A stretch of 64,000 nucleotides of DNA from Methanomassiliicoccales archaeon UBA147 (GTDB lineage: Archaea > Thermoplasmatota > Thermoplasmata > SG8-5). This document shows positions 12,423 to 46,384 of the stretch, piece after piece. The notes under the pieces were generated by a model. That model was not told the origin of the DNA and ran no database searches. It saw only the letters and a program-made list of their open reading frames with translations. The stretch is from positions 1,155 to 65,154 of the forward strand of contig DAJR01000027.1 of assembly GCA_002496385.1 (NCBI GenBank), read 5' to 3'. The stretch's first letter is position 1, and every line of letters starts with the position of its first letter. The position numbers were made by a program, and so were the translations under genes.

Positions 12423-12932
12423 ATGAGAGCTACGGTTGCGATAACTGTTCTGGCGATCTTCATGGTCATCGCCTCAATCGCATCGGCCAGCCCCGCCCTG
12501 AGCTCCCCCAAGGTCCTGCCAACCACAGGCACTTCGGGCGATGTTTTCACATTCACTGTTCATTACAAAGGGGATTCGCCGGTTTCCGTGACATTCTATG
12601 CCGACAATGCCCCTCTTGAGATGCAGGAAGTGGACCCCGGGGACCAGAATTACACCGATGGCAAGGACTATTTCATCCGTGTGAACCTGGAAGAAGGAAC
12701 AACCATTTATTATTTCAAGGCCACAACCGCCGCGGGCGAGGAAACGAGAACCGCCGCGACCACGATCAATGTCCAGCCTCCCGAAGGTTTGAGGGTCGAC
12801 CACATAGACGTCGTGCTGGCTGTCCTGATATTCCTCATTCCCACGGTGTGGGGTCTGGTCATGTTCCGGAGATTGTCAAAAGACCTTAGGGAGACAATGC
12901 AAATTCTGAAGGAGAGAAAAAAATCAGAATAG
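12423..12932 (+). CDS. Secreted, C-terminally membrane-anchored small protein (Ig-like ectodomain)
   Basis: Signal peptide MRATVAITVLAIFMVIASIASA. C-terminal TM VVLAVLIFLIPTVWGLVMF followed by a basic tail. Confidence 0.6.
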   Translation: MRATVAITVLAIFMVIASIASASPALSSPKVLPTTGTSGDVFTFTVHYKGDSPVSVTFYADNAPLEMQEVDPGDQNYTDGKDYFIRVNLEEGTTIYYFKATTAAGEETRTAATTINVQPPEGLRVDHIDVVLAVLIFLIPTVWGLVMFRRLSKDLRETMQILKERKKSE

Positions 12933-13757
12933 GTTGACAAGGTACAGGCGTTTGGTCCTGTTCATGCTGACCACATGCCCTGGTTTGAACCTCTCCTCAA
13001 TGCCCGCGAGTGCATTGACCAGTTCCACCATTTCTCTTTTCGTCGGGTTATCGAGGTCCAGCCCCACCTGCAGTATCTGGCGCTCTATCACCGGGCCGGC
13101 ATTGGCAGGCCCCCCGAACTGGTCGGTGAAGTCCGCGATGATGCGATCCAATGCATCTTTGAGATTGTTGATTTCTGTTTTGTCAATAATATATTGGGTA
13201 TAATTAAGTCGGGCGCTCTCCGTGTTCCTGAGGATAGCCTCGGCCAGTTCAGTGAAGACAGCCTCTACATTAAATCCGTCCTTGGAGCTGGTCAGGAATA
13301 CCTGCTTTCGCAGATTGCAAGGGTCATATTCTCTGGCAAGGTTATTCAATTCCCTTTCGCCGAACTCGGCCTGGGCCTGGAGGTCGCTTTTGTTCCCGAG
13401 AAAAACCATGGGCATCGCCCCGGATATGCTCAGCAGAGAAGGAATCCAGTAATCCTTGAGGCTCTGAAGTGTGTCTCCTCTGGTGACGTCGGAAACCAGA
13501 AGCGCTCCCTCGATGCCTCCGAAGGAGAGTGCCTGGGTATATTGGTATCCCCTCTGGCCGAGTATATCCCAGATCAGGAGAATGACATGCTTTTGGCCGG
13601 TGTCCGGTTTGAAGTACATGTCCTTCTTCGTCACCTTTGAACCAAGGGTGGTCATGTACTTGTCGCTGAACTGGTCCGTGACGAAACGGCGCACAAGACT
13701 CGTTTTTCCCGTGGCCCCGTCCCCGAGGAGTATGATGTTCTTTTTCAGGGTCTCCAT
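12924..13757 (-). CDS. Ras/Rab-like small GTPase with an approximately 100-aa C-terminal helical extension
   Basis: G1 GDGATGKT, G2 TTLG, G3 WDILGQ, G4 GNKSD and G5 TSSKDG are all present. Confidence 0.8.
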   Translation of the reverse strand: METLKKNIILLGDGATGKTSLVRRFVTDQFSDKYMTTLGSKVTKKDMYFKPDTGQKHVILLIWDILGQRGYQYTQALSFGGIEGALLVSDVTRGDTLQSLKDYWIPSLLSISGAMPMVFLGNKSDLQAQAEFGERELNNLAREYDPCNLRKQVFLTSSKDGFNVEAVFTELAEAILRNTESARLNYTQYIIDKTEINNLKDALDRIIADFTDQFGGPANAGPVIERQILQVGLDLDNPTKREMVELVNALAGIEERFKPGHVVSMNRTKRLYLVNLF

Positions 13758-13843
13758 GGGATGGACAATCAGCTGGAGGGTATTAATGTGTTTCCAATTA
13801 ATCTCTTGAATTTTGTATAATGCATAGGTGAAAAGATTAAAAC

Positions 13844-14998
13844 TCAGCTGATTTTTTCATCCTGGATTTCCAGCTTCATGTCCGCTCCGCAGGATGGGCA
13901 CTTCCCATCGTTCGCCGAGATGCAATCGGCATGCGCCACCCTTCCGCATTCGCACTTCACCGATGGCGAGGCCGGAGAAAGCGGTTTGCCGCAGTGCTGG
14001 CATAGTCCTTTCTTCCGTTGCGGGGATTCTTCCTTGACCGGTTCCCTGTCAAGCACTCCGAAGTACCTGAACATGACCAGCCAGAACACGGTTATCCAGG
14101 CCATGAATATCAATTCGCCGATGTTGTTGTGCGTCCACTGCATGGCCTCCGCGCCGTGATACCTGCCGACAATGATGATGATGGTCATCCTGAGGATGTT
14201 CGCGACCCAGGCAAGGAATATTCCGAGGGCCAGGAGGAGCGCTACCTTCCTGTCCGCCTTCTTATATTCCACGGCAACGAAGGCGATGAATGCCGACACG
14301 AATATCGCGACTGAGTAAAGACCGGTGCATGACAGCCCGATGCTCAGTGGGATCGGGAATCCATCGGGACCGGGGACCTCCATCATATTGTAAATCCGGA
14401 GGCCCGTCATCGGATCTGTGACCGGGGAGACCACGGCTATCCCGAGCAAGTTCGACAGGGCGGCGGTGGGCATGGCCAGTAAGTAGTAGATGAGCGGGGT
14501 GTTGGTGTCGGTCTCGCCTCCGCCCAGGCTCAGCAGGGTCGTCGGTATCACTAGGAAAACGAATAGAAGTATCACGAAAAGGAGGGCGAAGTCCCTCTCG
14601 ACGCGATATTTCGCGGGAATGTAATTGTAAGCGAGAAAGACCGCTGCCAGCACAAGTGCGACATAGTCATTGCTCCCGAGGTAGAATCCGTCCCTGAGGA
14701 ACAGGTTGAACGATGCCACCGCGACCAGCACCGCAATCCCCGCGGCCGGGATGAGCAATTTAAGGCGTCCTTCCAGCGTGACCAGGTTCACAAGGCGGGA
14801 GGCGATGTTGTCTTCCGCTGTTTTCTCTTTGGCAACGGCCTTTTCGCCTTTCGCAGCCCAGAGCAAAGCCCCGATGCCCGCGAGGATGAAAACAATCCCG
14901 ACCAGCCGGCTCATGTGGCTGAGCAATATCGCCAGGTTGAGCCCCCCGAAGAGAAGCACAAGACCGGCGACATACATTACCTTGTCAGCAGTTTTCAT
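13844..14998 (-). CDS. Archaeosortase-family transpeptidase (possibly ArtC-like) with an N-terminal TM extension and a C-terminal cytoplasmic zinc ribbon
   Basis: The protein is polytopic. It carries the conserved Cys/Arg/His triad contexts LSCTGLYS, ANILRMT and WTHNNIGE. The C-terminus is CQHCGKPL...CECGRVAHADC...CPSCG. Confidence 0.7.
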   Translation of the reverse strand: MKTADKVMYVAGLVLLFGGLNLAILLSHMSRLVGIVFILAGIGALLWAAKGEKAVAKEKTAEDNIASRLVNLVTLEGRLKLLIPAAGIAVLVAVASFNLFLRDGFYLGSNDYVALVLAAVFLAYNYIPAKYRVERDFALLFVILLFVFLVIPTTLLSLGGGETDTNTPLIYYLLAMPTAALSNLLGIAVVSPVTDPMTGLRIYNMMEVPGPDGFPIPLSIGLSCTGLYSVAIFVSAFIAFVAVEYKKADRKVALLLALGIFLAWVANILRMTIIIIVGRYHGAEAMQWTHNNIGELIFMAWITVFWLVMFRYFGVLDREPVKEESPQRKKGLCQHCGKPLSPASPSVKCECGRVAHADCISANDGKCPSCGADMKLEIQDEKIS

Positions 14999-15010
14999 TC
15001 AGCACCCCGA

Positions 15011-15901
15011 TCAAAAGAAGTCGGCAAGCCCCTTCCCGAGCTTCATGCCCGGTTTGAATCCCAGAATCTTCTTGGCCTTTGAGATGTCGGCGCTGCTGTG
15101 CAGTATATCGCCCTTGCGGGGTTCCGAATAGCTCACTTCCAGCTCCTTTCCCGAGAGCCTGATGACCTCGGCAGCAAGTTCATTGACTGTCGTGGCCTTT
15201 CCGGTGCCGCAGTTGAATGCCTGGCCCTTCGCATCCGGATTTCCGAGGCACAGCTTCACCATTCCCACGACATCGCTGACGTGGATGAAATCCCTGGTCT
15301 GGCTCCCGTCCCCGTAGATGGTCGGCGCCTCCCCGGCCTTCGCCCTCTCGACGAACCGCGAGATGACTCCGGAGTACGGGGAGTTCGGGTCCTGCCTCTT
15401 GCTGTAAATATTGAACGGGCGGATGCTGGTCACCCCCAATCCGTAGCTTTCCTGGAACGCGAATGCGTAATTCTCCCCAGCCAACTTGCTGACACCGTAG
15501 GGCGAGAGCGGCCTTGTCGGGTGCATCTCGCCGATGGGGACCCGCTCAGGATTGCCGAAAATCGCCGCCGAGGATATGTAAATGAACTGGCCGACCATGG
15601 ACTTGGCGGCCGTTTCCAGCAGGTTCACGGTCCCGAGTATGTTCTCCTTCGCATCGAAGACCGGGTCAGATACCGACCGGTCCACGCTGACCTGGGCGGC
15701 AGTGTGTATGACCGCGTCCCTCCCCCGGCAGAGGTTCATCGAGAGCCGATAATCCCCGATATCTCCGAGGATGTGCTTGGCGCCTTTCACTGGGTGTGCG
15801 GTGGGCTTGAGGTCCAGGCCAGTTATCTCGTGGTCCGCGGACAGTGCCTCGACAAGGTAGGAACCCAGCTGGCCCGATGCGCCGGTGACAAGTATTTTCA
15901 T
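15011..15901 (-). CDS. NAD-dependent epimerase/dehydratase (UDP-sugar 4-epimerase-like SDR)
   Basis: VTGASGQLGSYL is the GxxGxxG motif. The catalytic YxxxK lies in SPYGVSKLAGE. The gene ends 12 nt upstream of the archaeosortase gene start. Confidence 0.85.
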   Translation of the reverse strand: MKILVTGASGQLGSYLVEALSADHEITGLDLKPTAHPVKGAKHILGDIGDYRLSMNLCRGRDAVIHTAAQVSVDRSVSDPVFDAKENILGTVNLLETAAKSMVGQFIYISSAAIFGNPERVPIGEMHPTRPLSPYGVSKLAGENYAFAFQESYGLGVTSIRPFNIYSKRQDPNSPYSGVISRFVERAKAGEAPTIYGDGSQTRDFIHVSDVVGMVKLCLGNPDAKGQAFNCGTGKATTVNELAAEVIRLSGKELEVSYSEPRKGDILHSSADISKAKKILGFKPGMKLGKGLADFF

Positions 15902-15948
15902 AGATGGGAATCCCCTCAGGTATTATTTAAGGATTTTGACAAAAGTAA

Positions 15949-16216
15949 TTGTTCACAGTTTGCTGTTTTTTCATTTCTTTTTGTAACGGGGTCTAGGGTC
16001 TTTGTTCACAAGATGGTGTAAAGGGTCTAGGGTCTTTGCTTATAAAACGGAATAAAGGGGCTTTGTTTGCAAAATGGTATAAAGGGGCTAGGGTGTGCTG
16101 GCTGACTTGAACAGCCAGCAAAAAACAATTGTTACCAACCCTAGACCCTAGACCCTAGCCCCTAGACCCAGACACATAAAATCGTTATTTAGACACCTAT
16201 TCCAATGAACTCTTGC
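15949..16216. repeat. Composite intergenic repeat element, copy 3 (long form)
   Basis: It has the same flanks as copy 2 (ttgttcacag.ttgctgttttttcatttcttttt on the left; cagacacataaaatcgttatt.aga.ac.tattcca..gaactcttgc on the right). The core is tgctggctgacttgaacagccagca, with palindrome AACAATTGTT and (ccctaga)n. Confidence 0.9.
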
Positions 16217-16294
16217 GACAGAAAGCAGGTTTTCCGTGGCACAACTCAACGCCAAATTTTAAAATATAGACTGCTATACAGCGGCGGTGTTTCG

Positions 16295-17155
16295 ATGATA
16301 GTTGTAGGAGGTTCTGCCTCGGGGTCCCTGTCGCGCGAGCTCTCAAAACGGCTCGGCTGCAGGATGGCCGATGTCGAGATAAAGAGGTTCCCTGACGAGG
16401 AATGCTATGTCAAGGTGAAGGAGCCCCTGAAAGGCCAGGACGCTGTCATCGTCCAGACGACATACCCGGACCCGAACATCCTCGAACTCCTGCTCCTCCA
16501 GGACGCTGTGCGCAACTCGGGCGCGGAGAGCATCACCACGGTAATACCTTATTTCGGTTATGCCAGGCAGGACAAGAGCTTCACGGAGGGCGAAGCGGTG
16601 AGCGCGAGGCTCATGGCCAAGCACATCAGCCTTGGCACCGACAGAGCCTTCACGATAGACATTCACAATATCTCAGTCCTGGAAGCATTCACTGTCCCGG
16701 TCCGGAACCTCAGCGCTATGCCCGCCATCGGCAAGTTCCTCGCTGATAACTCTGTGGATTTGATAGTCTCGCCCGACGAGGGCTCGAAGGCCAGGGCCAG
16801 CCTGGCCGCGGAAGCCGCAGGGTGCCAGTGGGACTTCCTTCAGAAGAAGAGGATAGACGGCAGCACCGTCGAGATCAAACCGAAGAACCTGGACGCCAAT
16901 GGCAAATCCATCGCGATCGTGGACGACATCATCGCCACGGGCGGAACCATGATAAAGGCGGCCGAGCAGCTGAAAAAGCTCGGGGCAAGATCCGTCTTCG
17001 CGGCCTGCACGCACGGCCTCTTCACGGGCGGCTCCCTCCCGAAACTTCAGGCATCGTTCGACAGGGTCCTCTCCACGGACACCCTCGAGCGCCCGACCTC
17101 CGCAATCTCAGCCGCGGAATGCATCGCCCAAGCTCTGAAAAATACATCTGGCTGA
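16295..17155 (+). CDS. prs: Ribose-phosphate pyrophosphokinase
   Basis: MIVVGGSAS...RFPDEE...YFGYARQDK and the PRPP-binding loop VDDIIATGGTM. The start is moved to ATG 16295 because the 16205 extension lies inside repeat copy 3. Confidence 0.9.
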   Translation: MIVVGGSASGSLSRELSKRLGCRMADVEIKRFPDEECYVKVKEPLKGQDAVIVQTTYPDPNILELLLLQDAVRNSGAESITTVIPYFGYARQDKSFTEGEAVSARLMAKHISLGTDRAFTIDIHNISVLEAFTVPVRNLSAMPAIGKFLADNSVDLIVSPDEGSKARASLAAEAAGCQWDFLQKKRIDGSTVEIKPKNLDANGKSIAIVDDIIATGGTMIKAAEQLKKLGARSVFAACTHGLFTGGSLPKLQASFDRVLSTDTLERPTSAISAAECIAQALKNTSG

Positions 17156-17340
17156 TGATTTTCTTTTGTTCGAACGTTGTACCAAATGGTATTTAAATAC
17201 CTGTGTATATAGGGTAGGATAACAAGAGAAAAAACAGGCGAAACTCAGGTCCCTTGGGGGGTATTCATCTTCTAAAGGGTTTTCTGGGATTTGTGCTGTT
17301 TTTTCGAGAAAACAGAAAAATATGAGAGGAGGAACGAAAC

Positions 17341-42500: not shown

Positions 42501-42558
42501 ATTGGTGGCGTTCCTCGAAAGAAGGAGGAGGAAGAGAGAGGATGCTGCCGTCATCTAG
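23671..42558 (+). CDS. Giant surface protein of about 6,295 aa. Order of parts: 5 N-terminal zinc ribbons, a TM anchor, mixed beta-domains, 39 DUF11-type repeats, an Ig-like plus CarboxypepD_reg-like module, and a PEF-CTERM.
   Basis: A single uninterrupted ORF. ATG 23671 (MSKKDL) is preferred over the TTG at 23644 used by the ORF track. The repeat consensus is K(T/S)(A/G)PxxANxGxxIxYT(I/L)xYxNxGxxxAYNVxIxETYPxGVTF...NxWx(I/L)GxLAPGxSGxIxIxVxV. Confidence 0.9.
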   Translation: MSKKDLERQGDGGGGTKQCPICGAENAPDASECTGCSFTFEADDIVETTSAAPGSGSTVCNDCGAELPAGTTSCFICGAEIGTPSTETIPEPPAEETPPEEEWDAGVVGGDAEPAPEEVTEEPEEIPEQPTPELPELGENEFHCPSCGKPIAMGTSKCPECWAEIPEMIRCPKCDHTIPLSSEVCAECFAKLKNGVLIEEPPEEMPEPAELPAEDLNGGELEEHIDEVTEIYGVECPFCHEIANPGDDICPECGMPLIEREEPAEEELAPRKKPERDWYRIIAIGVVAVLLVSGILPFAIPLPHVDRLQIRIDGAFGDWDQVSGQNDSVLSTLPANVDIVQSKMLSDAFNIYFFMQVRGQVFGDQEGDTARIFIDTDQDPATGYSIMGLGADYQIRVFGHGGDVESSSCLAFDDSKAQNDFNGFVSASPSVPHAPEAVQDAAKFEVRATLGDIGITQTTPVTAVFYMADSHGNRDYSDLPISSLGSVLFVRQSSIAPANGLMTGSASPAISLEIHAIGQSVDINGITVPNCAPGTFVRTMANGTSQTLSLTTSVTSLSAGSLVVREAAPDDFDVSGAHVVVTGQGSYSYAVMAPALIGIDGAFADWNGKGTTNSDRIDDQLSKNGIDSIDDAGLDMVSQTTARENNQLNILVQTNGTMLAGMWVPEIEEAYVDTGANTRSEATKPDYTYTEPEVSKTRAPNIQRPTVKSAKTGEGAVNVYLDTDNDTSTGYSIEGRGADYLVKIKGQNGRVTATSISIFSGSDRNMPSWTLQAGLPLGASSGSGVEIGIPLGLFTGITPNTSAVIQLVDWNLNGDVSDISMWDVFETGTRAGTRADPGLPGYGHLMGTLLTSGNEFVPGATLVLKDLTGRATTRITVENTIDSYSIAQEVSKGLQVNMYAVNNTLYGANSTTLTNDKTLAKCNIMMGNPIPAAAPTGLEAKVFGAIGVRLTWTTGATPTSFNIFKTTNTTTSAGDVMGRYYGISRLTGISGTATEFIDTNVANNTVYYYFIESVTGAQVHYSQEVSVTVNYSAVPVITHQPIADCTASVVTVKATVTDDSGIKFASVFYRKGSSGAWTSAPMTLSSGSPSNGNWVAGIPVEMTDINQLYQYYLTADDGSNLGMFGGSGAPGYPTPFGYNASYAPSNPFPVYGYVYLYDGTFAGGFAPVPQPGATVTVSWYDFSMAAVNTTSDVTNALGQFSIDLHNGGVGDPLGYGIEISSTASTGNTGYNWTAITDWNMTGGIWMNVLCGVPYDVIITNPLALPVPAVSANVPFPVTYRIVDINGVLAPGYFTFADGPMNWHSGDPLFVSPPDVYFDGTSSTTPGTWTGNLLLQTLGATYINVTENHLSDFYLTPFDAIAYQIGGVATPGYLKDWANLTLTVVGQSVFNLTKWAPAFANPGEIFSYWLNYSNEGTQWMYNVSISESYPPGVTFISSIPPPTIGTDYWFIGTIAPGGSNSIQIFVSVNMNATGTLTNTASITAPSITTVWAFANTTVINPLMTVKKSAPATANAGETMMYTIRYWNNGTDWAQNVWIYEDYPMNVNVLNATPMPTAWPGTWYIGDLAPGATGTIFVNVTVNAGFSGTLYNEVLLTYENDVVSMPDARAWANTTVNNPLLNVDKTAPATANSGAQIVYAIHIWNSGTATAFDVVVTDTLPAGTTYVPVATPPPSSVVGQTLTWTLPPIAPGASVWIYVTVQVSETATGTISNTVSVVYEDAAGQELGPVTDTATFAIADPLLTIQKVGPAYANSGQTITYTIWVNNTGSAPAYNITVTETYPADATFVSSNPPPSFGNNVWNISFLAAHGGTQISVTVLISATPGTVWQNNTVIADYEDGSNEDQADVTDVVTTILNNPQLTLAKTAPEFANPDQDITYTVTVTNIGSEPAYNVIVTESYPAGVSFVSANPAPTTPINVWNLGSIPVGGSITIVITVHINAGTTGLLTNTVAADYESSSGQDYHVTAYDTTMVTWPVMNIWKDGPANSTAGSTIMYTIHYQNLGSDTAYNVTITETYPADTTFLNANPTPTVGNNVWVIPSVAPGTGGVIFVNVTISSTATGMLVNSISAIYKNTDNQTMPEITNETYTFLTGPWMNLEKTGPATANTGETVIYTLHYWNSGDDTAYNVNITEIYPIEVTFVSANPPPTYGNNIWLIPTVAPGVHGWINITVTINDGVTGTVTNYVNLNYRNDADVQLPVETGNWTIIILDPLMIIEKVGPSEANPGQVIMYTITYQNIGLGAAYNVVITDTLDPGVSYVSSSPAGALAGQVLTWNIGTLVSGQGGTIFINVTVTATNGTIINTVSVDYDDAADEDQDDVEDTVVTTLINPFLIVEKEGPATAVPGQTITYWINGTNIGNDWAYDIWVNDTLPAGLTFLGSIPAFNTSFGSTYSWFIGYLAPGGKFSIQITAQVTATSGEIVNFANITFKNDADIVQPVIEIQTSPMAIVDCLILITKTAPETANTGEFITYTIAYINVGLSTAYNVVITDTLPIDVTYYSSIPSGTVIGQVIAWNIGTLAPYASGSIQVTVQVNEGLPIDTELINNVVVTYENGGNIVNQTSDFNITTVIDPLVEITKWAPPTGAPGGILTYLVNYTNSGNDTAYNVVITETYPTGVTFLDANPMPNNPPTNTVWNLGNLAPGASGTIFINVTISTTAGGTLVNTVQIICENDADVEFTDQDTVNTPIVGPYVQIVKTGPANAAPGDTISYTITYSNTGPGIAYNVRVYDTLPAGVAFVNAIASGILQTAGPPTWVWWFGNLAPGASGTIVITVTVNADATLLINNASVEYYTDPGFVNKIINNCTFTTVVNSPLLTIEKTANATACTGQIITYEITVTNTGSNVANNVIVTENYPDGVTYLIAVPLPTSGNNVWNLSQIKGISMPVGAVWTITVTLRVNATAIGVLHNAVNVRYWNQANAVMPVVWAYADTTIVNPLLTIDKTAPAEANTGELITYTLTVTNVGTAPAFNIWVNESYPPGVTYVSSNILPINFGGDNDSWYIPSLAVGAPFTITITVRVDALTGTLTNWAFVNYTNFADMPLTEVDDFAITTIVNPIMGITKWAPATANPGQTFTYWINYTNTGDGWAYNVVITETYPAGVSFVSSTPDPSSGNNVWNFGPLASGATGSIQITVQVLAGTVGWVLNNSARLDFQNQAGIPQLTISAWAVTNVVQPAMTVIKTGPATATQGQTILYTIFYQNTGNDIAYNVIITDAVPLGVSFVNSTPNPTSPGVWVIGNLAPGASGYIYITATIGAATTGIITNWAYVNYKNRIIPLDQVGDSALTTIIVPRMTITKTAPDYANTGETITYTISYQNLAAVAAYNVVITDTLPVGVTYVSSTPPGSAAGQTVTWNVGILGPGASGTITVNVIVTATDGTLTNTVRASYRNQYSVVYPVVWDTDSTIIINPIITVEKSAPATANTGQNIEYVIWVNNTGTDIAYNVTITETYPVGVIFVFAFPVPTSSNNVWNLGNLAPGTATPIFITVTVNATGLLVNSAEARFNNYVGIPQTPVTDTASTLVGDPLMFIQKTAPLNANPGQTIMYTIRYWNNGTAPAYNVIITETYPAGVTFLNANPMPGNPPTNTVWTIPTVPSHGSGVIFINVTISATATGFIENNVLLAYTDAANNPKPSVTDQAITVLTGPYVLLTKTGPGYANPGQIIMYTVTYRNIGTDTAYNVWINETYPAFVTFLNATPAPTTGNNAWNLGNLAPGAFGTIFINVTVAATATGTIHNNVTAVFRNSVGEQFSSDATWPTIILEPVMQIVKTGPAGANPGATITYWINYTNTGSDWAYDVTITETYPTGVTYYTAIPLPTTGNNVWNVGSLAPGASGSIQITVTIGLAVTGSITNTVRVDYDNQAGRAMVPVTATFVTLIVNPLLSLEKTAWTVLPGTVFPNEIFTYQIIYTNIGGGWAYDVRITESFPTGVTFLDATPPPTFGNQWLVGPLAPGASGSILITVRVNSGATGTLLNNITANYENSLGEMPPVYAELALQVIAPRLQITKTAPATANTGQDIVYRIWVNNTGNAWATDIILTETYPASVTFIEAVPVPTVQNTVWYVPDLGPGGSWFVEITVRVNLDAYGTLLNSVAVTFRDMADQSYGPVLAQAMTLIQDPMVTISKTGPATANPGQVIMYTITYENIGTAPANVIITETYPASVTFLNATPMPGNPENTIWNIGSVAPSTGGTIFINVTVSVTASGTLTNIVVLDYSSATRDFKSKQAVWNTTIVEPDMTLSKTAPAQANSGQTITYWLNYFNEGTDWAYNVTVTETYPDGVTFLSATPAPTTIPNFWSIGNVAPNTGGSIQITVRVNATAFGTLTNYAILNYRSGGRIMPYVEATAQTKVMDPILIITKDAPTDANQGETITYTITVRNIGSDFAYNVWVFENYPGTIFESSIPAPAFPSNDVWYFDSIANGSFVVITITVTVPLSASGYLDNAAYVDYFDLAGESQDREWAYASTYVTGPSLTVDKWATPYANAGDYLTYWINITNTGTGWAYNVIVTETYPAGITFVSAIPAPNPGNTTWNLGSIAPNHTVKIQITVQVNIGTVGILVNRADVDYENQIGVDYTPVWDIAVTTLGEIPNVIIQKTAPQYANAGQTINYTIFYHNAATIWANNTWINETYPFGVTYVPVANPAPSVGNNCWFIDDLAPGQSGYIFISVTVTGAVYGTLTNMANIVYWNGNLTRKFENYASANTIVRDALMQVDKSAPDTVAINQQFLYTITYTNIGNDTAYDVWVVDTLPGGVSFVTSSIPPDASSVPPVYRWHFASIAPGASAGITITVQANVAGVQVNTVTIDYDNTQGVARPQVSDSATTVITGLATPYVTIQKFAPAQAVTGQVITYLITYQNVGDGIANNVVVTDTLPLGVTFLNATPAEDSIAGQLVTWNNLAPIGPGVSGTIFVNVTVNALSGTLANQANVVWTGGSNVAYAYTTIVSPLMQVTKTVNETMAQNGETLHYTITYTNVGSAPAYDVTIVDTLPPGSSYLGATPPWDTSAPPMYTWVIPIVPAGSSGTIFLDAQVNVVSGTLTNNVSLNYDNAIGTAQQPVYAEATTEVTAVELILTKTTSSLVAEPGTDITYFITIFNAGPTPFTFANDVTLNDFYPAGTMFVTAQLKINNGGWNPAPANVSVAGLDTWYLSSWLGPMPAFDTWTLQLIVHIDWMAPDVLENRAMVNYTESGFVHFLNATAVTTISGPLMDITKTSSMKYVSPGQEFIYTINYVNNGPGPALNVTIREFYPAGLTFLSSIPAPSEGNNVWHLGTIGGLNNPPNSGQIIIRVRVNAMAGGVLTNRATLNYQNISGGWMPEESAFNTTTVLTGNTRMYIDKSGPATATTGQYVEYTIYYQNIGTGMALNVVLEDTFLASDLSFLSASRTPSYGGPGDTTIGWNLGNLAPHDSGTIIVRCTIGLAPGPSAQNFATIYFTDTVGNPGSISDMASTWIHIPVLNITKEGPAFANSGQYITYWINYTNTNPIAAAYNVTITETYSLNVTYLIANPLPTTGTNVWFIGTVSPGGSGSIIITVRVLGTVANGGAVFNYVNLAYENMGYIAQPVESAFVTTTIYNPILQVGKTGPASANTGQLINYTITLNNIGGAPAYNIEIADLYPSQVTYVGASLTPSIGNNRWLIPFLINGGSIQFNITVRIGYSVTPGITIHNDVFVDYEDGNGGAKPQEWARASTLIVDPLLRVTKTGPAIASTNQTITYLITVENFGNADAYNILLNELYPSNQTARWITFVNSSQFPTGAGNDTWTIFSLAPGATWVLWINVTVLVQCDINNTVTVAYRDYPGEIQEPVSDYWVTTIENPCMIIRKTANATAVAGGYILYNITAENIGTGNATNVIVTEYYPVGTAFVWASITPTSGNNEWTFASLPVGFIGWLNILVRVNGNAVPASLLNNTVHFAYQNQGGMPMPQLNVSASTRIIGPSIQILKSAPGYVEIGQIFNYTIQYWNNGTDWAYNVVIRDIYPSALTILGTEPAPATIQLGYYEWTVSAIAPGTTGIIRMTVLADRATTLINNASLSYRNAANLLYPTIFSLATTQVSLLPYILPPEITTTPPEFVWAGQNFTLYADALGMGADIDTVILYFTDISGTTWYSIMVPLLITLNGSGVYSIVMPAQSFKGFISYFVWVNDTNGNENRTGIYDVAVRLPPYFVWGNIYSNRGNMVANAIVQITDTVTNETVMAITDSGGRYTVDLATLYSGYMNGENLVVYATDGSFYGRNESFIDLDGYDDLTMAFPNRRVNVVLSEIPEFATILVPLIGLMVLVAFLERRRRKREDAAVI
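27838..41850 (+). repeat. 39 tandem DUF11-type ('conserved repeat domain') units of about 120 aa each
   Basis: I segmented the translation by hand into 39 consecutive units (14,013 nt / 39 = about 120 aa). The units are diverged from one another at the amino-acid level. Confidence 0.85.
42454..42558 (+). other. PEF-CTERM archaeosortase sorting signal
   Basis: ...SEIPEF-ATILVPLIGLMVLVAFL-ERRRRKRED. This is a PEF tripeptide, a hydrophobic helix and a basic cluster at the extreme C-terminus. Confidence 0.7.
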
Positions 42559-43090
42559 AATCGCCATTGCATCATTTGTCGTATGCATCCTAATGATATC
42601 CGCCGTTCCGGGGGAATCCGTGGCAATTCCTTACAAGATAGAGGGGTACCTTAACGACGGTGAAGGCCTTCCAATCACTCTTGCCAATATATCCATCACC
42701 GGCGAAGTGTACGATATCGGGGTACAGGACATGGTCAGCCAGACCTGGTACCGCACGACCGACGCATACGGCAAATACGTGATATACCTGGCAGCGAATG
42801 AGCCGGGCGGCCTGTTCATGAATTCCACAGTCACGGTTTCGTATCGTTCCGGAGACGACATTGTCAGCAGGGATGTGACCATCTCAGGCCTTTCGGTTTG
42901 GGCTAATTTGACTTACAAAGAGAGTCTTGGCCTGGGGGATTACCTGATGTCTCCCATAGGCATACTGATTATCGTGATTCTGATAGTGGCTGTGATGATA
43001 GGGTTCTATATTTCCAAATCTGAATCGCCTGAAGAAGTAAAAGACTCCGAACAGTCAAAACGAGTCGAGAAGCGAAGGCGAAGGAATTGA
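42542..43090 (+). CDS. Small secreted, C-terminally anchored protein with a CarboxypepD_reg-like beta-sandwich
   Basis: The ATG lies 17 nt inside the end of the giant gene. Signal peptide IAIASFVVCILMISAVPGESVA. The segment YKIEGYLNDGEGLPITLANISI...DAYGKYVIYL is present, and there is a C-terminal TM plus KRRRR. Confidence 0.7.
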   Translation: MLPSSRIAIASFVVCILMISAVPGESVAIPYKIEGYLNDGEGLPITLANISITGEVYDIGVQDMVSQTWYRTTDAYGKYVIYLAANEPGGLFMNSTVTVSYRSGDDIVSRDVTISGLSVWANLTYKESLGLGDYLMSPIGILIIVILIVAVMIGFYISKSESPEEVKDSEQSKRVEKRRRRN

Positions 43091-43099
43091 GAGGTTCAG

Positions 43100-46000
43100 A
43101 TGAGAAACAAACAATATCAGTTCATGTCAATCCTGACCGCATTCATTGTAGTTTCGCTTCTGGTCCCTTCGATTCAATTAGGCGCTTCTGATTCTCCCCC
43201 GCCGCATGTGATATATGGCTATGTGTATGATGCCTATTCCACTCCCCTTAAAGACGCTGAAGTATATGTCAACAATACCAGGACTGGAGGTTCCCAGGAT
43301 TGCATTGCCGATGCATATGGGAGATATACTGTGGGTATCGACGCGAATACGACCCACCCGTATCAAATCGGTGATTTGCTCTCCATAACGGCTGTTTACC
43401 ATAATCATTCCCAGAATGGCATTATTTTTGTTGATGGCTCTCCAGCACAACTGTTCAATATCTCCTTGAATTTCAGGGCATACATCATTCAGGGCAACGT
43501 TGTTAAGCCGGATGGAACGCCAGCCAGGTATTTCAATGTCCAGGTGACCAATGAATTCTATCATGAAACCAGGAATTGCGTCACGGATTCCCAGGGCCAT
43601 TACAGGACCGACCTCAGTACCTTTCAAAACGGGTTCGGGCAGAACGACGGGATACTTGCATCCGTGAGCCAATCCGGTTTTCACGGTCAGAAATACACCG
43701 TGGTCCAAACCGGCCCAGGTGCAACTTTGGATATCACCCTCGTTGATATAGAGGATCCAACCCCCCTTCTCCAGGAAACACCGGCCTCAGTCAACCTGTC
43801 ACAGAATTTCCGAATCCTTGTTTGGGTCACTGACAACCATGTGCTCGGCAGCGTCAGGCTGCTCATCAAGAAAAGCGGCCAATCCGCATACTCCGAAATT
43901 CCGATGATCAAAGACGACGGTTCAATTAATGACTGGAACGGGAACGGGATGCCCAACACTCAATTGTACGGCCAATCGACACAGCTCGGTCTCCCGGTTC
44001 AGACCGACATCCGCGATTTGCTCTTTTACATCAATGCGACCGACACTGGAGGGAATTCAGGCACCGCCCCCGCCCTCAATCCATCTGCCAGCCCGTTTAT
44101 CATTAAGGTGAATGACCAATTCTCTCCGACTCTCGCGCATACGCCAGTTACATGGGCAGAGGCGGGAGTGCCCAAAGAAATAATTGCGACCGCCGATGAC
44201 AACATAATGGTTGACCAGGTCAATCTCTTTTGCAAGGGCGTTGGCATGGTTTCGTTCTCTAAAATCCGGATGATGCCAACAGGCGACCCCCTAAAGTACA
44301 ATGCCAGCATCCCCGCCCAATATGCCCTGGGAACTCTGAATTACTACCTGGTATGCAATGACACCAGCAATAATTCTGTAAGATTGCCAGTGTCCGGTGA
44401 GTGGAGTGTCAACGTGGCGGACACCCGAGCCCCCGTAATCACCCACACCAAAATCAATTCAGCCAATAAGGATGGAACTGTAAATTTCACATGCATCGTG
44501 AATGAAGTCAATGAAGACTTGTTGGACTCTGTATGGCTCAATTATTCCTATGGTGCGCTATCGGGAAACGAGACCATGAACTACAGCTCCCTGACAGGAG
44601 CTTGGCATTATGAGTTCAGTCCTCTGTCAACCAAGGACATTTTCTGCTATACCATCTGGGCAAATGACACCAGCGGGAACATCGCCCATGTATCAAATGC
44701 GTTCCCGGTGCTTGATGTGGGCACCCCATTGATAACCCATCAGCCTCCGGAGTTTCTGGAATTCAACCGGACCGTGGCTATTTTTGCGTATGTCGAGGAT
44801 GATGTTGAGATTGCAGGAGTTGCTTTGGCATACCTTCCCTCGGGAGCCCTGGAATACAACACTGTCGGCATGGCCGACGCGGACACCCACTCTGATGTCA
44901 GGCATGGCAATTATACAGCCAATATTTCCGCGCAAACTGTTCTCGGGATAGGTAAACTTAGATACATAATGAATGCCAGTGACGGCACAAACAACATTTC
45001 CTGGCCTTCCCTCCAGCCTTATTATCTGATAGACATCCTGGACACGCTTCCCCCATCGATTTCTAATCTGGCTTTCAATGCGACCCCACCCGGAAATGCC
45101 GGTGCGAGGGTTCGAGTGAATGTCACGGACTGGCATTCTGTGGATTCCGTGACAATTCATTATCTTAATTCCACCTCTTTGCAGTGGACTCCAGTCCAAA
45201 TGAATCTCATCGACAGCCTGACATACGAAGGAACAATCCCCCCCCATTCCCCGGGCATGGTGAAGTTTTATATTGCGTCAAACGACTCAAGCGGGAACGC
45301 TGCCACGCTCCCCCTGACCACGCCCAAACTCAATCCGTTCTTCATTAATTTCACGGACGGCATTCCCCCCGGGATTGAACTGGTCGTTCCGGAATCCATG
45401 GGTGTGAACCAAACCGTGGATATCATCGTCAACGCAACCGACGATTTCTCAAATGCCTCGGCTGAACTGTTTTGCATGGGCGTGAAGGACACCGTGTTCC
45501 GCCGGATAGAGCTATCCATGATTGATGACGCTTCATACAAAGGCACCCTTCCCCCGCAATTGTCCAGCGGTTTCGTTAAACTGTACGCAATTGCTTCGGA
45601 CGGCCTTAACAGGAATCAAACATCCACAATAGAAATCCCGGTGATCAACAATCCTCCGATGATAAGGCATACATCGCCCAACAACCTCTCGTTTGGCGTG
45701 GCATTCTCGATTGTCGCCGAGGTCACGGACGACCTGCGAGTTGAGAACGTGAGCCTTGATTGGAAGTTGCAGGGAGGGGTCAGCACTCTGAAAGCATTGG
45801 GCCGGGTGAATTCAAATTTTTATCGCGCAAACCTCTCCTTTGATAGCCCTGTGACGGTTCTTTATCGAATCATTGCCTTCGACACAGAGAATCATTCAAT
45901 CTGGCCGGATGATGGCTATTACGAAATTGAGATATCTGACTTGGAGATGCCGAGAATCATCCATGAGCCATTGCAGAACCTCACCACGGCCGAGATGCCC

Positions 46001-46384
46001 ATCATCATTGCCACGGTCACCGACAATCTGAAGGTTGCCTCGGTCGAGATCTGGTACAGAAATGCCGAGTCCGAGGCATTTGCCAGTGCGGAGTTGATGC
46101 AGGCATCCGGCACAGACGATTATGCCGTGATATTGGACCGCCAGCCTGAAGGCAATTTCACATATTACATAGTGGCCAGCGACGGAGTCAATGATGCCCG
46201 ATTCCCGATACATGGCTCATGCACGGTGGAGGTAACCCGCTGCGGTGAATCCTCTTGGTTACCCGTTTTGATACTGACAATTGTGATAGTCCTAATGATA
46301 TTCGCAGCCTTTCTGGTATATCTGCATCATCGTCGGAAGCCTATTAAAGAAGAACCTGTTTCACCGGATAATAAGGTAGATTGA
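43100..46384 (+). CDS. Membrane-anchored surface protein, 1,094 aa: 2 CarboxypepD_reg-like domains, 8 tandem approximately 105-aa Ig-like repeats, and a C-terminal TM
   Basis: Signal peptide MSILTAFIVVSLLVPSIQLGA. The VIYGYVYDAYSTPLKDAEVYV...YGRYTV segment is present. The repeats begin P.I.H(T/Q/E)P.... The C-terminal TM is LPVLILTIVIVLMIFAAFLVYL followed by HHRRK. Confidence 0.85.
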   Translation: MRNKQYQFMSILTAFIVVSLLVPSIQLGASDSPPPHVIYGYVYDAYSTPLKDAEVYVNNTRTGGSQDCIADAYGRYTVGIDANTTHPYQIGDLLSITAVYHNHSQNGIIFVDGSPAQLFNISLNFRAYIIQGNVVKPDGTPARYFNVQVTNEFYHETRNCVTDSQGHYRTDLSTFQNGFGQNDGILASVSQSGFHGQKYTVVQTGPGATLDITLVDIEDPTPLLQETPASVNLSQNFRILVWVTDNHVLGSVRLLIKKSGQSAYSEIPMIKDDGSINDWNGNGMPNTQLYGQSTQLGLPVQTDIRDLLFYINATDTGGNSGTAPALNPSASPFIIKVNDQFSPTLAHTPVTWAEAGVPKEIIATADDNIMVDQVNLFCKGVGMVSFSKIRMMPTGDPLKYNASIPAQYALGTLNYYLVCNDTSNNSVRLPVSGEWSVNVADTRAPVITHTKINSANKDGTVNFTCIVNEVNEDLLDSVWLNYSYGALSGNETMNYSSLTGAWHYEFSPLSTKDIFCYTIWANDTSGNIAHVSNAFPVLDVGTPLITHQPPEFLEFNRTVAIFAYVEDDVEIAGVALAYLPSGALEYNTVGMADADTHSDVRHGNYTANISAQTVLGIGKLRYIMNASDGTNNISWPSLQPYYLIDILDTLPPSISNLAFNATPPGNAGARVRVNVTDWHSVDSVTIHYLNSTSLQWTPVQMNLIDSLTYEGTIPPHSPGMVKFYIASNDSSGNAATLPLTTPKLNPFFINFTDGIPPGIELVVPESMGVNQTVDIIVNATDDFSNASAELFCMGVKDTVFRRIELSMIDDASYKGTLPPQLSSGFVKLYAIASDGLNRNQTSTIEIPVINNPPMIRHTSPNNLSFGVAFSIVAEVTDDLRVENVSLDWKLQGGVSTLKALGRVNSNFYRANLSFDSPVTVLYRIIAFDTENHSIWPDDGYYEIEISDLEMPRIIHEPLQNLTTAEMPIIIATVTDNLKVASVEIWYRNAESEAFASAELMQASGTDDYAVILDRQPEGNFTYYIVASDGVNDARFPIHGSCTVEVTRCGESSWLPVLILTIVIVLMIFAAFLVYLHHRRKPIKEEPVSPDNKVD

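What the first reader, a model, noticed from the sequence alone, without database searches (positions are those of the whole stretch)
12924..46384. Candidate undescribed surface-fibre system: an archaeosortase / Ras-like GTPase operon and a single giant PEF-CTERM substrate with module-sharing neighbours
Seen in the sequence:
- A minus-strand operon encodes an epimerase (15901-15011), an archaeosortase (14998-13844) and a Ras-like GTPase (13757-12924). The epimerase and archaeosortase genes are only 12 nt apart.
- 8.7 kb away, a 6,295-aa protein ends in IPEF + hydrophobic helix + RRRRKR.
- That protein is flanked by four other secreted or anchored proteins. They share its CarboxypepD_reg-like module, a 234-aa module and an Ig-like module, but none of them carries the PEF tail.

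Established knowledge: archaeosortases process C-terminal tripartite signals. PEF-CTERM is the signal class assigned to the ArtC subfamily, and archaeosortase genes are often near their substrates.

Inference: this is a dedicated sortase-substrate pair. The Ras-like GTPase and the zinc-ribbon modules on both enzyme and substrate could add a cytoplasmic control layer. I know of no described precedent for that arrangement.
Basis: partly seen in the sequence, partly recalled or inferred. Interest (0 to 1): 0.85.

Follow-up and report, generated by a model that had tools for sequence, protein, structure and literature searches.

The report
Archaeosortase with its giant surface-protein substrate
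An uncultured Thermoplasmata archaeon encodes a membrane sorting enzyme close to a 6,295-residue surface fibre protein carrying the matching C-terminal sorting tail, which is a new variant of a known system, while the neighbouring Ras-like GTPase looks like a chance neighbour rather than a control layer.

Summary
The enzyme passes the exosortase/archaeosortase signature model. ArtC is its best subfamily, but at 56 bits against a cutoff of 100. The giant's EIPEF + helix + RRRRKR tail hits PEF-CTERM best, at 14-19 bits against a cutoff of 23. So this is an unnamed, Thermoplasmata-wide ArtC-related lineage.

Comparative data support the enzyme-tail pairing. EIPEF is invariant in the six C-terminal homologues recovered. 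The gene order is kept in related species. More distant relatives of the enzyme sit directly beside small proteins ending in PEFGPG tails.

The giant is a fibrillar-adhesin type protein. It has five cytoplasmic zinc ribbons, a membrane helix and 39 CLIPPER (DUF11) repeats.

The GTPase follows the enzyme only in six close relatives. In two genomes that hold both genes, they lie on different contigs. None of 80 metagenomic GTPase loci has an archaeosortase. 46 of them instead carry a membrane protein with a conserved ~130-residue domain, usually just upstream.

The new feature is a cytoplasmic RING-like finger at the enzyme's C-terminus, present in 38 of 67 loci.

Whether the giant is the only substrate could not be tested.

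The parts
13844..14998 (-). Archaeosortase, 384 aa. It belongs to an ArtC-related, unnamed subfamily found across Thermoplasmata. Predicted layout: two extra N-terminal helices, then the catalytic core with C224, R270 and H290 on the outer face, then a cytoplasmic C-terminal tail.
   Evidence: TIGR04178 scores 59.9 bits (cutoff 23) and PF09721 scores 33 bits (cutoff 25.7). TIGR03762 (ArtC) scores 56.4 bits against a cutoff of 100. C224, R270 and H290 are invariant in 25 homologues. The topology follows the positive-inside rule.
13889..14002 (-). RING-like binuclear zinc finger at the archaeosortase C-terminus (aa 333-370). The ligand pattern is C-x2-C-x13-C-x-C-x4-H-x2-C-x7-C-x2-C. It is predicted to be cytoplasmic.
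   Evidence: All eight ligands are invariant. The finger is present in 38 of 67 related loci. A profile of the tail hits the AMFR, Arkadia and RNF165 RING domains at E 7e-5 to 1e-3. The AlphaFold2 model has pLDDT 82. Foldseek matches RNF165, RNF38 and RNF4 RING domains at probability about 1 and rmsd 2.4-3 A. Relatives found with the profile hit Pfam Prok-RING_1 and zf-RING_2 above their cutoffs.
15011..15901 (-). NAD-dependent sugar epimerase/dehydratase, 296 aa. It lies 12 nt upstream of the archaeosortase and is probably co-transcribed with it.
   Evidence: PF01370 scores 196 bits. The same gene lies directly upstream of the enzyme in 11 of 51 loci with enough flank, down to 44% enzyme identity. 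A partial copy at the contig edge of L002 would make 12.
12924..13757 (-). Rab-like small GTPase, 277 aa: a G domain followed by a C-terminal four-helix bundle. It is adjacent to the archaeosortase but is probably not part of the system.
   Evidence: Pfam Ras scores 102 bits. The AlphaFold2 model has pLDDT 79. The top Foldseek hits are Rab11, Rab1 and Rab8. The adjacency is restricted to 6 close relatives. The family's conserved partner lies elsewhere.
15902..16204 (.). Divergent intergenic region between the epimerase-archaeosortase operon and the PRPP synthase and surface-protein genes. It contains one copy of a genome-specific repeated element.
16205..17155 (+). Ribose-phosphate diphosphokinase (PRPP synthase). 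It is a housekeeping gene and a widely conserved divergent neighbour of the archaeosortase.
   Evidence: NF002095 scores 325 bits against a cutoff of 296. BLAST finds a PRPP synthase homologue in 37 of the 67 loci. It is divergent and within about 2 kb of the enzyme in 19 of 46 loci with enough flank.
17341..20286 (+). Secreted 981-aa protein with a signal peptide, a conserved ~280-aa N-terminal domain, a Big_5 domain and a conserved ~280-aa C-terminal domain. It has no anchor and no detectable similarity to the giant.
   Evidence: The N-terminal domain recurs next to the enzyme in 12 loci, including the halophile clade. The C-terminal domain recurs in 18 ORFs around the enzyme.
20498..23455 (+). 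Secreted 985-aa protein with a signal peptide and no anchor. Its residues 539-777 match giant residues 1146-1384.
   Evidence: 76.6% amino-acid identity over 239 aa and 77% DNA identity over 705 nt. Orthologues occupy the same position in L001 and L006.
23671..42558 (+). Giant surface protein, 6,295 aa. Layout: cytoplasmic head with five zinc ribbons (aa 1-277); membrane helix (278-305); ectodomain (306-1385); 39 tandem CLIPPER/DUF11 repeats (1386-6039); a C-terminal region with a CarboxypepD_reg-like domain; and the sorting tail.
   Evidence: PF01345 matches 7 + 19 + 15 stretches in three overlapping pieces of the protein. DZR scores 48 bits. The repeat map comes and the zinc ribbons and helices. 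A 6,275-aa orthologue with the same domains lies in the same position in a related species.
42451..42558 (+). PEF-type tripartite sorting signal: EIPEF (aa 6261-6265), an 18-residue hydrophobic helix, RRRRKR, then EDAAVI and the stop codon.
   Evidence: TIGR03024 is the best sorting-domain hit at 14 to 18.6 bits, below its cutoff of 23. EIPEF is invariant in six homologues at 57-77% identity, while the helix residues vary.
42542..43090 (+). 182-aa type I membrane protein. Its start overlaps the end of the giant gene by 17 nt. It has a plain C-terminal helix followed by a roughly 30-aa tail, with no PEF motif.
   Evidence: The match to the CarboxypepD_reg-like module is marginal. The same overlap and gene order are seen in L076.
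43100..46384 (+). 1,094-aa type I membrane protein with CarboxypepD_reg and Ig-like domains. It is only distantly similar to parts of the giant and has no PEF motif.
   Evidence: A 953-aa homologue follows in L076.

Best explanation
This is an archaeosortase and its cognate substrate, set in a conserved cell-envelope gene island of an uncultured Thermoplasmata archaeon.

Proposed mechanism:
1. The giant protein inserts with its zinc-ribbon head in the cytoplasm and its N-terminal helix acting as a signal-anchor.
2. About 5,950 residues are exported. They include a stalk of 39 CLIPPER repeats and 121 N-glycosylation sequons.
3. The C-terminal helix and the RRRRKR cluster stop the transfer.
4. 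The archaeosortase has its Cys-Arg-His site on the outer face of the membrane. It recognises EIPEF, removes the helix, and transfers the new C-terminus to an acceptor. By analogy with ArtA, the acceptor would be a membrane lipid.
5. The co-transcribed epimerase probably supplies a nucleotide sugar for glycosylation linked to this step.

The enzyme belongs to an unnamed, ArtC-related subfamily. Most of its members carry a cytoplasmic RING-like zinc finger of unknown role. The neighbouring Rab-like GTPase is most likely a gene that moved into this position in one narrow clade and works with a different partner.

Shown here: the gene content, domain identities, conserved catalytic residues, conservation of the motif, and the synteny. 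Inferred: cleavage, the nature of the acceptor, the role of the epimerase, and the topology.
For: Enzyme identity:
- It passes the signature model, ArtC is the best subfamily, and the catalytic residues are invariant.

Tail:
- It has the tripartite architecture, and PEF-CTERM is the best-scoring sorting model.
- EIPEF is invariant in six homologues while the helix varies.

Pairing:
- In the halophile clade (L022, L023, L029, L034, L035), 320-370 aa ORFs ending in PEFGPG-type or SEFG-type tails, followed by a helix and a basic cluster, lie 75-370 nt upstream of the enzyme ORF. L031 carries the same kind of tail on a contig-edge fragment in the same position.
- L059 has three tandem upstream proteins with IPGF, LPGF and IPELPF tails.
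- L011 has a protein of at least 3,293 aa next to the enzyme, ending in AEPF + helix + FRKK.

Synteny:
- The order PRPP synthase, 17341-like, 20498-like, giant is kept in L001/L075 (6,275-aa orthologue) and L006.
- The order giant C-terminus, 178-aa protein, 953-aa protein, 458-aa protein is kept in L076.

Other points:
- The epimerase lies directly upstream of the enzyme in 11 loci, plus a partial copy in L002.
- CLIPPER/DUF11 repeats are the stalk domains of fibrillar adhesins (PMC12617251).
- The ArtA mechanism is described in PMC6098224.

GTPase as a bystander.
Against: - Both curated models are below their cutoffs, so assignment to ArtC/PEF-CTERM is by best hit only.
- No experimental data exist for any ArtC-type enzyme, so cleavage and lipid attachment are extrapolated from ArtA.
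- In about 30 more distant loci whose enzyme carries the finger, no tripartite tail was found within 10 kb. Proximity of enzyme and substrate is therefore not a rule for this family.
- If the N-terminal helix stays in the membrane and the C-terminus becomes lipid-anchored, the fibre would be tethered at both ends. That is an odd geometry which this model does not explain.
- The GTPase gene is only 21 nt from the enzyme gene in L075. The two genes may therefore be co-transcribed in that close relative.
Confidence: 0.7

Rival explanations
1. The archaeosortase, the Rab-like GTPase and the zinc-binding modules on enzyme and substrate form a dedicated, cytoplasmically controlled machine that assembles one giant fibre.
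For: - The GTPase lies directly downstream of the enzyme in L001, L003, L005, L006 and L007, and 1.9 kb downstream in L002.
- The gap between the two genes is only 21 nt in L075.
- By the positive-inside rule, both the enzyme's RING-like tail and the giant's zinc-ribbon head are cytoplasmic.
- The giant orthologue in L001 keeps five zinc ribbons.
Against: - The adjacency is limited to loci whose enzyme is at least 59% identical to the window's. The other loci with enough downstream flank (about 50) have no orthologous GTPase downstream of the enzyme. L009 and L010 carry only a shorter 176-aa paralogue, about 40% identical, 4 kb away on the opposite strand.
- In two genomes the orthologous GTPase (61% and 55% identity) is on a different contig from the enzyme.
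- 0 of 80 metagenomic GTPase loci has an archaeosortase. 46 of them have a conserved membrane protein carrying a ~130-aa domain, usually just upstream and co-directional.
- In L002 an opposite-strand gene and a regulator gene separate the enzyme from the GTPase.
- The RING-like finger is present in 38 loci irrespective of the GTPase.
- No paper in the searched library links archaeosortases with small GTPases. That also means there is no independent support for the idea.
Confidence: 0.08
2. The giant's C-terminal helix is an ordinary permanent membrane anchor. The resemblance to PEF-CTERM is coincidental or vestigial, and the archaeosortase acts on other proteins encoded elsewhere in the genome.
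For: - TIGR03024 scores 14 to 18.6 bits, below its cutoff of 23.
- The two downstream neighbours have plain helix anchors.
- Many loci whose enzyme carries the finger show no nearby tail.
Against: - EIPEF is invariant in all six C-terminal homologues recovered, while the helix residues change.
- Unrelated small proteins with PEF/SEF tails sit immediately next to relatives of the enzyme in another clade.
- PEF-CTERM is the top sorting model for most of these tails.
- The giant and the enzyme stay in one locus across species.
Confidence: 0.15
3. The giant is only one of several substrates. The enzyme serves a set of PEF-tailed proteins scattered through the genome, as ArtA and ArtC do in other archaea.
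For: - ArtA genomes encode 1 to 52 predicted substrates (PMC6098224).
- Genomes with ArtC were tabulated with 1 to 19 PEF-CTERM proteins (PMC5244752).
- L059 has three tandem tailed proteins.
Against: Only one tailed ORF lies in this 64-kb window. The rest of the genome could not be examined.
Confidence: 0.5

Closest known systems
Archaeosortase C / PEF-CTERM system (TIGR03762 / TIGR03024; Haft, Payne and Selengut 2012; known in Methanosarcinales and ANME-2)
   Same: ArtC is the best-scoring named subfamily for the enzyme and for all ten homologues tested. The tail has P-E-F, a hydrophobic helix and a basic cluster, and PEF-CTERM is its best-scoring sorting model.
   Different: - All scores fall below the curated cutoffs: 50-69 bits against 100 for the enzymes, and 13-22 bits against 23 for the tails.
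- The lineage is Thermoplasmata.
- The enzyme has two extra N-terminal helices and a C-terminal RING-like finger that the ArtC model does not cover.
- The tail continues for six more residues after the basic cluster.
ArtA / PGF-CTERM system of Haloferax volcanii (the only archaeosortase studied experimentally)
   Same: It belongs to the same superfamily and has the same conserved catalytic residues. [quoted passage not shown]
   Different: The motif differs (PGF against PEF). ArtA was not among the NCBIfam hits. ArtA has no zinc finger (from my own knowledge, not tested here). Its main substrate is the S-layer glycoprotein rather than a repeat fibre.
CLIPPER (DUF11) fibrillar adhesins (PMC12617251)
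   Same: A long tandem array of CLIPPER, CLIPPER_2 and DUF7619 domains forms a stalk in a giant surface protein.
   Different: The anchoring differs. This protein has an N-terminal signal-anchor with five cytoplasmic zinc ribbons and a C-terminal archaeosortase-type tail. Whether its repeats form isopeptide bonds was not tested.
Prokaryotic RING finger family 1 (Pfam PF14446; Burroughs, Iyer and Aravind 2011)
   Same: The same eight-ligand pattern, consistent with a cross-brace finger. Proteins found with the enzyme-tail profile hit Prok-RING_1 and zf-RING_2 above their cutoffs. The predicted fold matches RING domains.
   Different: The window protein itself does not reach any Pfam RING cutoff. 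The finger is fused to a membrane transpeptidase. No ubiquitin-like, E1, E2 or JAB genes were seen among the window ORFs scanned. I could not find this fusion described in the papers available to me. The 2011 paper itself was not held.
MglA/MglB-type and other prokaryotic Ras-superfamily modules (a small GTPase with an adjacent partner protein)
   Same: It is a small Ras/Rab-like GTPase. In most lineages it is encoded next to one conserved partner protein.
   Different: The partner is a bitopic membrane protein whose ~130-aa cytoplasmic domain has no Pfam or PDB sequence match. Its resemblance to roadblock/LC7 is my impression from the sequence only. In this window the partner is absent and the GTPase lies beside the archaeosortase.

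Membership tests
Exosortase/archaeosortase superfamily | Match to the signature model TIGR04178 and to Pfam PF09721 above the curated cutoffs | tested here: met
   TIGR04178 scores 59.9 bits against 23. PF09721 scores 33 bits against 25.7.
Exosortase/archaeosortase superfamily | Conserved Cys, Arg and His catalytic residues in a multi-pass membrane protein | tested here: met
   C224, R270 and H290 are invariant in 25 homologues. About nine hydrophobic segments are present.
Archaeosortase C (ArtC, TIGR03762) | Score at or above the curated cutoff of 100 bits | tested here: not met
   The window protein scores 56.4 bits. Ten family members score 50-69 bits. ArtC is nevertheless the best named subfamily for all of them.
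Archaeosortase C (ArtC, TIGR03762) | Co-occurrence with PEF-CTERM proteins | tested here: inconclusive
   PEF-type tails occur next to the enzyme here and in several related loci, but all score below the TIGR03024 cutoff. A genome-wide count was not possible.
PEF-CTERM sorting domain (TIGR03024) | Tripartite C-terminus: signature motif, hydrophobic helix, basic cluster at the very end of the protein | tested here: met
   EIPEF, an 18-residue helix, RRRRKR, then six more residues.
PEF-CTERM sorting domain (TIGR03024) | Score at or above the curated cutoff of 23 bits | tested here: not met
   14.0 bits within the last 318 aa and 18.6 bits for the isolated tail. Related tails score 13-22 bits.
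Ras superfamily small GTPase | Pfam Ras above cutoff, and G1 (GxxxxGKT), G3 (DxxGQ) and G4 (NKxD) motifs | tested here: met
   PF00071 scores 102 bits against 21.6. GDGATGKT, WDILGQ and NKSD are present in the sequence. The fold matches Rab structures.
Eukaryote-type Rab | C-terminal Cys prenylation motif | tested here: not met
   The protein ends ...RLYLVNLF with no C-terminal Cys. It has a roughly 100-aa helical domain there instead.
RING finger (Prok-RING_1 PF14446 / zf-RING_2 PF13639) | Eight zinc ligands in cross-brace order with a RING fold | tested here: met
   The C4HC3 pattern is invariant. The predicted fold matches RING domains. The cross-brace arrangement is inferred from that pattern and the predicted fold. 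The profile hits solved RING domains at E 7e-5.
RING finger (Prok-RING_1 PF14446 / zf-RING_2 PF13639) | Pfam score above the gathering cutoff for the window protein | tested here: not met
   The only hit is C1_1 at 17.3 bits against 26.5. Relatives found with the profile do pass.
RING finger as E3 ligase | Association with ubiquitin-like, E1, E2 or JAB genes | not tested
   None was seen among the window ORFs scanned. No systematic search was made.
CLIPPER (DUF11) fibrillar adhesin | Tandem PF01345 domains in a long surface protein | tested here: met
   7 + 19 + 15 matched stretches in three overlapping pieces. 39 repeats mapped at aa 1386-6039.
CLIPPER (DUF11) fibrillar adhesin | Intramolecular isopeptide-bond residues (Lys, Asn and a catalytic Asp) | not tested
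   The repeats were not aligned to the solved CLIPPER structure 9IFR.

The most novel reading that the evidence does not exclude
The cytoplasmic RING-like finger fused to most members of this archaeosortase family is a docking or gating module. It would couple substrate processing on the outer face of the membrane to a cytoplasmic partner. That partner could be the substrate's own cytoplasmic parts (the basic-acidic tail or the zinc-ribbon head) or a shared factor that also binds the RING-like tails found on many other large archaeal surface proteins. In the window's narrow clade, the Rab-like GTPase could have been recruited to this layer.
Probability: 0.12. Interest if true: 0.75.

Novelty: new variant of a known kind. 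Interest (0 to 1): 0.4.

Why it matters
Only ArtA has been studied experimentally among archaeosortases, and ArtC-type enzymes are known only from genome annotation. This locus defines a Thermoplasmata-wide ArtC-related subfamily that no curated model captures. It comes with a clear candidate substrate, an invariant EIPEF motif and a conserved operon partner, so the pairing can be tested directly.

The fusion of a RING-like finger to a membrane transpeptidase is unusual. The same finger type also sits on the cytoplasmic tails of many large surface proteins. Together these suggest an unexplored cytoplasmic interaction network for archaeal envelope proteins.

Removing the GTPase from the model prevents a misleading annotation. 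It also points to a separate, widespread pairing of a membrane protein with a GTPase.

Tried and rejected
- GTPase as part of the system: rejected on synteny.
- Module sharing by all four neighbours: only 20498-23455 shares a clearly homologous block with the giant.
- The two downstream helix-anchored proteins as further substrates: rejected. They have no motif before the helix and have long cytoplasmic tails.
- Homology between the small halophile PEF proteins and the giant: none found at BLAST level, so only the tail is shared.
- Identity of the GTPase partner domain: Pfam and PDB sequence searches gave nothing.
- A link between the presence of the finger and a longer acidic extension on the substrate tail: dropped. 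L011 has the finger, but its neighbouring protein of at least 3,293 aa ends right after the basic cluster.
- A solved structure of any exosortase or archaeosortase: a profile search of PDB sequences matched only RING and FYVE-type zinc-finger domains, through the C-terminal finger.
- Rfam and tRNA scans of the window found nothing.
- The key papers Haft et al. 2012 and Burroughs et al. 2011 were not held in the library.


Full report
**Observation**

The ORFs are as described:
- 12924-13757 (-): a 277-aa protein that hits Pfam Ras at 102 bits.
- 13844-14998 (-): a 384-aa multi-pass membrane protein.
- 15011-15901 (-): a 296-aa NAD-dependent epimerase/dehydratase, 12 nt upstream of the membrane protein.

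The long plus-strand ORF runs from ATG 23671 to 42558, giving 6,295 aa. It starts 8.67 kb from the archaeosortase start. It ends SEIPEF-ATILVPLIGLMVLVAFLE-RRRRKR-EDAAVI. It is the only ORF in the 64-kb window with such a tail.

A housekeeping PRPP synthase gene (16205-17155, 325 bits) separates the enzyme operon from the surface-protein genes. The GTPase gene is separated from the enzyme gene by 86 nt that hold an AT-rich TATA-like box about 30 nt before its ATG.

The claim of shared modules is only partly right:
- 20498-23455 shares a 239-aa block with the giant at 76.6% identity, 77% at DNA level.
- 43100-46384 shares only 25-26% identity over a CarboxypepD_reg-like stretch and an Ig-like stretch.
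- 42542-43090 is marginal.
- 17341-20286 shares nothing detectable.

**The enzyme**

It passes the exosortase/archaeosortase signature model (TIGR04178, 59.9 bits against 23) and PF09721. ArtC (TIGR03762) is the best named subfamily, but at 56.4 bits against a cutoff of 100. Ten homologues score 50-69 bits, so the whole family lies outside the curated ArtC model.

The 74 homologues found come from uncultured Thermoplasmata and Methanomassiliicoccales-type genomes. C224, R270 and H290 are invariant.

By the positive-inside rule these residues face outward. The last 68 residues, with 11 Lys/Arg, are cytoplasmic.

**The finger on the enzyme**

The cytoplasmic tail holds the pattern C-x2-C-x13-C-x-C-x4-H-x2-C-x7-C-x2-C, with every ligand invariant. 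The finger occurs in 38 of 67 related loci, down to about 29% enzyme identity.

Evidence that it is RING-like:
- A profile of the tail hits solved RING domains (AMFR, Arkadia, RNF165, NOT4) at E 7e-5 to 1e-3.
- An AlphaFold2 model (pLDDT 82) superposes on the RNF165, RNF38 and RNF4 RING domains at 2.4-3 A with probability near 1.
- A library-wide profile search found 681 representatives. They include soluble proteins with up to ten copies and the C-terminal tails of large surface proteins with Laminin_G_3, Big_13 or CBM96 domains.
- Those proteins hit Pfam Prok-RING_1 and zf-RING_2 above their cutoffs.

The enzyme therefore carries a relative of a known prokaryotic RING family. I found no description of this fusion in the papers I could search.

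**The giant**

Its parts, in order:
- Residues 1-277 hold five CxxC...CxxC zinc ribbons (Pfam DZR, 48 bits) joined by acidic Pro/Glu linkers.
- RKKPERDW precedes a helix at 278-305, which suggests an N-in signal-anchor.
- Residues 306-1385 form the ectodomain next to the N-terminal membrane helix. This region includes the block shared with 20498-23455.
- Residues 1386-6039 are 39 tandem repeats of about 118 aa. They match DUF11/CLIPPER, CLIPPER_2 and DUF7619.
- A CarboxypepD_reg-like domain (6151-6240) precedes the tail.

CLIPPER repeats are the stalk domains of fibrillar adhesins, some of them stabilised by isopeptide bonds (PMC12617251). The protein has 121 N-x-S/T sequons.

**Is the tail a real sorting signal for this enzyme?**

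TIGR03024 is the best sorting-domain model for the tail, but at 14 to 18.6 bits against a cutoff of 23. The comparative evidence is stronger:
1. Six homologues of the giant's C-terminus (57-77% identity) all keep EIPEF exactly, while the helix varies.
2. In L001/L075 and L006 the order PRPP synthase, 17341-like, 20498-like, giant is kept. The L075 orthologue is 6,275 aa with DZR and CLIPPER domains. L076 keeps the order giant C-terminus, 178-aa protein with overlapping start, 953-aa protein, 458-aa protein.
3. In a halophile clade whose enzymes lack the finger (L022, L023, L029, L034, L035), an unrelated 320-370 aa secreted protein lies immediately upstream of the enzyme. It ends in PEFGPG-type or SEFG-type tails, followed by a helix and a basic cluster. 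L031 carries the same kind of tail on a contig-edge fragment in the same position.
4. L059 has three tandem proteins with IPGF, LPGF and IPELPF tails. L011 has a protein of at least 3,293 aa ending AEPF + helix + FRKK.

PEF-CTERM is the top model for most of these tails, at 13-22 bits. The pairing of this enzyme family with PEF-like tails is therefore well supported. Exclusivity for the giant is not. ArtA and ArtC genomes usually hold several substrates, and I could not scan the rest of this genome.

**The wider locus**

- The epimerase lies directly upstream of the enzyme in 11 of 51 loci with enough flank, down to 44% enzyme identity. A partial copy at the contig edge of L002 would make 12.
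- A PRPP synthase homologue occurs in 37 of the 67 loci. It is divergent and within about 2 kb of the enzyme in 19 of 46 loci with enough flank.
- The N-terminal domain of 17341-20286 recurs next to the enzyme in 12 loci. Its C-terminal ~280-aa domain recurs in 18 ORFs around the enzyme, including between the enzyme and ProRS in the halophiles.

The enzyme therefore sits in an old envelope gene island, in which the tailed protein differs between clades.

**The GTPase**

The protein is a Rab-like G domain with intact G1, G3 and G4 motifs, followed by a four-helix C-terminal bundle. Full-length relatives are common in Thermoplasmata (454 hits).

Evidence against a link with the enzyme:
- The orthologue follows the enzyme only in L001, L003, L005, L006 and L007, and at 1.9 kb in L002. 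In L002 an opposite-strand gene and a regulator gene intervene.
- All six loci have enzymes at least 59% identical to the window's.
- None of the other loci with enough flank (about 50) has the orthologue downstream of the enzyme. L009 and L010 carry only a shorter 176-aa paralogue, about 40% identical, 4 kb away on the opposite strand.
- In genomes SF.bin11 and MEGAHIT-group-0.714 the GTPase orthologues (61% and 55% identity) lie on different contigs from the enzyme.
- In L009, L010 and L013 the small membrane protein homologous to window 12423-12932 lies directly after the enzyme. The GTPase gene therefore appears to have been inserted between them in the window's clade.

Evidence for a different partner:
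- The GTPase neighbours in L068, L070, L072 and L074 share a ~130-aa domain at 33-56% identity.
- Among 80 metagenomic loci with relatives of the GTPase (38-71% identity), none has an archaeosortase.
- 46 of the 80 carry this domain (32 of the 48 loci of at least 6 kb). It is usually in a ~345-aa bitopic membrane protein immediately upstream on the same strand.
- The domain is absent from the window and from L001-L007. It has no Pfam or PDB sequence match.

**Mechanism proposed**

Shown: gene content, domains, conserved residues, conserved motif, synteny. Inferred from ArtA (PMC6098224):
1. The giant is exported by the Sec system and held by its C-terminal helix and basic cluster.
2. The enzyme cleaves at or near EIPEF and transfers the new C-terminus to an acceptor, probably a lipid.
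3. The epimerase feeds a linked glycosylation step.

Open questions are the role of the RING-like finger and the geometry of the fibre. If the N-terminal helix also stays in the membrane, the fibre would be tethered at both ends. A V-S-G sequence within that helix could be a signal-peptidase site, but this is speculation.

**Novelty and score**

The kind of system is known: an archaeosortase with its cognate C-terminal signal on a giant adhesin. The new elements are the Thermoplasmata-wide subfamily outside all curated models, its RING-like cytoplasmic tail, and the pairing with a protein anchored by a zinc-ribbon head. I rate it a new variant of a known kind, with interest 0.4.

The most novel reading not excluded is that the RING tail couples processing to a cytoplasmic partner. 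I give that about 0.12 probability.

Noticed in passing
window 9369-9488, 12137-12331, 15989-16169, 61473-61539: A repeated intergenic element of about 230 nt occurs four times, all in the same orientation. Most copies have two to four forward GGGTCTAGGGTC-type units about 34 nt apart; the fourth copy (61473-61539) lacks these forward units. Every copy has a perfect hairpin (TGCTGGCT-nnnn-TGAACAGCCAGCA) followed by three or four tandem ACCCTAG heptamers. The 12-mer gives 21 hits against 0.35 expected. The element is absent from all 74 loci from other genomes held at that point, and it has no Rfam match. One copy lies in the divergent promoter region between the epimerase-archaeosortase operon and the surface-protein genes. 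It could be a MITE-like element or an array of regulator-binding sites.
   Followed up: partly
L125 5874-6911 with the GTPase at 7001-7780; also L068 8927-12406, L070 8832-11999, L072 8931-13595 and L079 7925-11041: The Rab-like GTPase family has a conserved partner. It is a bitopic membrane protein with an ectodomain of variable size (150 to more than 1,000 aa), one helix, and a ~130-aa cytoplasmic domain with no Pfam or PDB sequence match. The domain looks roadblock/LC7-like to me from the sequence only. The partner is present in 46 of 80 metagenomic loci, usually as an upstream co-directional gene. This may be a widespread receptor-plus-small-GTPase module in Thermoplasmata.
   Followed up: yes
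window 10685-11071 (-) and 9626-10459 (-): A ribbon-helix-helix protein lies next to a short (277-aa) FtsZ/tubulin-family protein, 2 kb from the GTPase. The pair resembles the cdrS-ftsZ2 pair of haloarchaea (the title of PMC7439475 appears). It is syntenic in L001, L003, L006 and L007.
   Followed up: no
window 22113-22815 and 27107-27809: A 705-nt block is 77% identical between the 985-aa secreted protein gene and the giant gene. The same block is only about 40% identical at protein level between the giant and the orthologous neighbour in L001 and L006. This suggests gene conversion or a recent exchange of the module within the genome.
   Followed up: partly
proteins P0201-P0245: The same RING-like finger type occurs in soluble proteins with 4-10 tandem copies. 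It also occurs at the extreme C-terminus of many large proteins (1,000-4,900 aa) that carry extracellular-type domains such as Laminin_G_3, Big_13, Big_7 and CBM96. This suggests a common cytoplasmic tail module on envelope proteins, probably archaeal.
   Followed up: partly
window 17341-20286; L023 6854-8878, L029 6819-8624, L034 4953-6782, L035 6262-8589; L021 2871-5717 and others: A family of secreted proteins clusters around the archaeosortase across Thermoplasmata clades. They share a ~280-aa N-terminal domain (12 loci) and/or a ~280-aa C-terminal domain (18 ORFs). In the halophiles one lies directly before the PEF-tailed protein. Their function is unknown. They may be partners of the tailed proteins.
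   Followed up: partly
window 12423-12932 (+); L009 6636-7190, L010 11291-11875, L013 11064-11903: A 169-aa protein with a signal peptide and a C-terminal helix is convergent with the archaeosortase in more distant relatives. In the window's clade the GTPase gene lies between the two genes. The protein has no Pfam match.
   Followed up: partly
window 42542-42558; L076 9049-9065: The start of the 182-aa membrane protein gene overlaps the end of the giant gene by 17 nt. The overlap is conserved in a related contig. This suggests translational coupling of the two genes.
   Followed up: no
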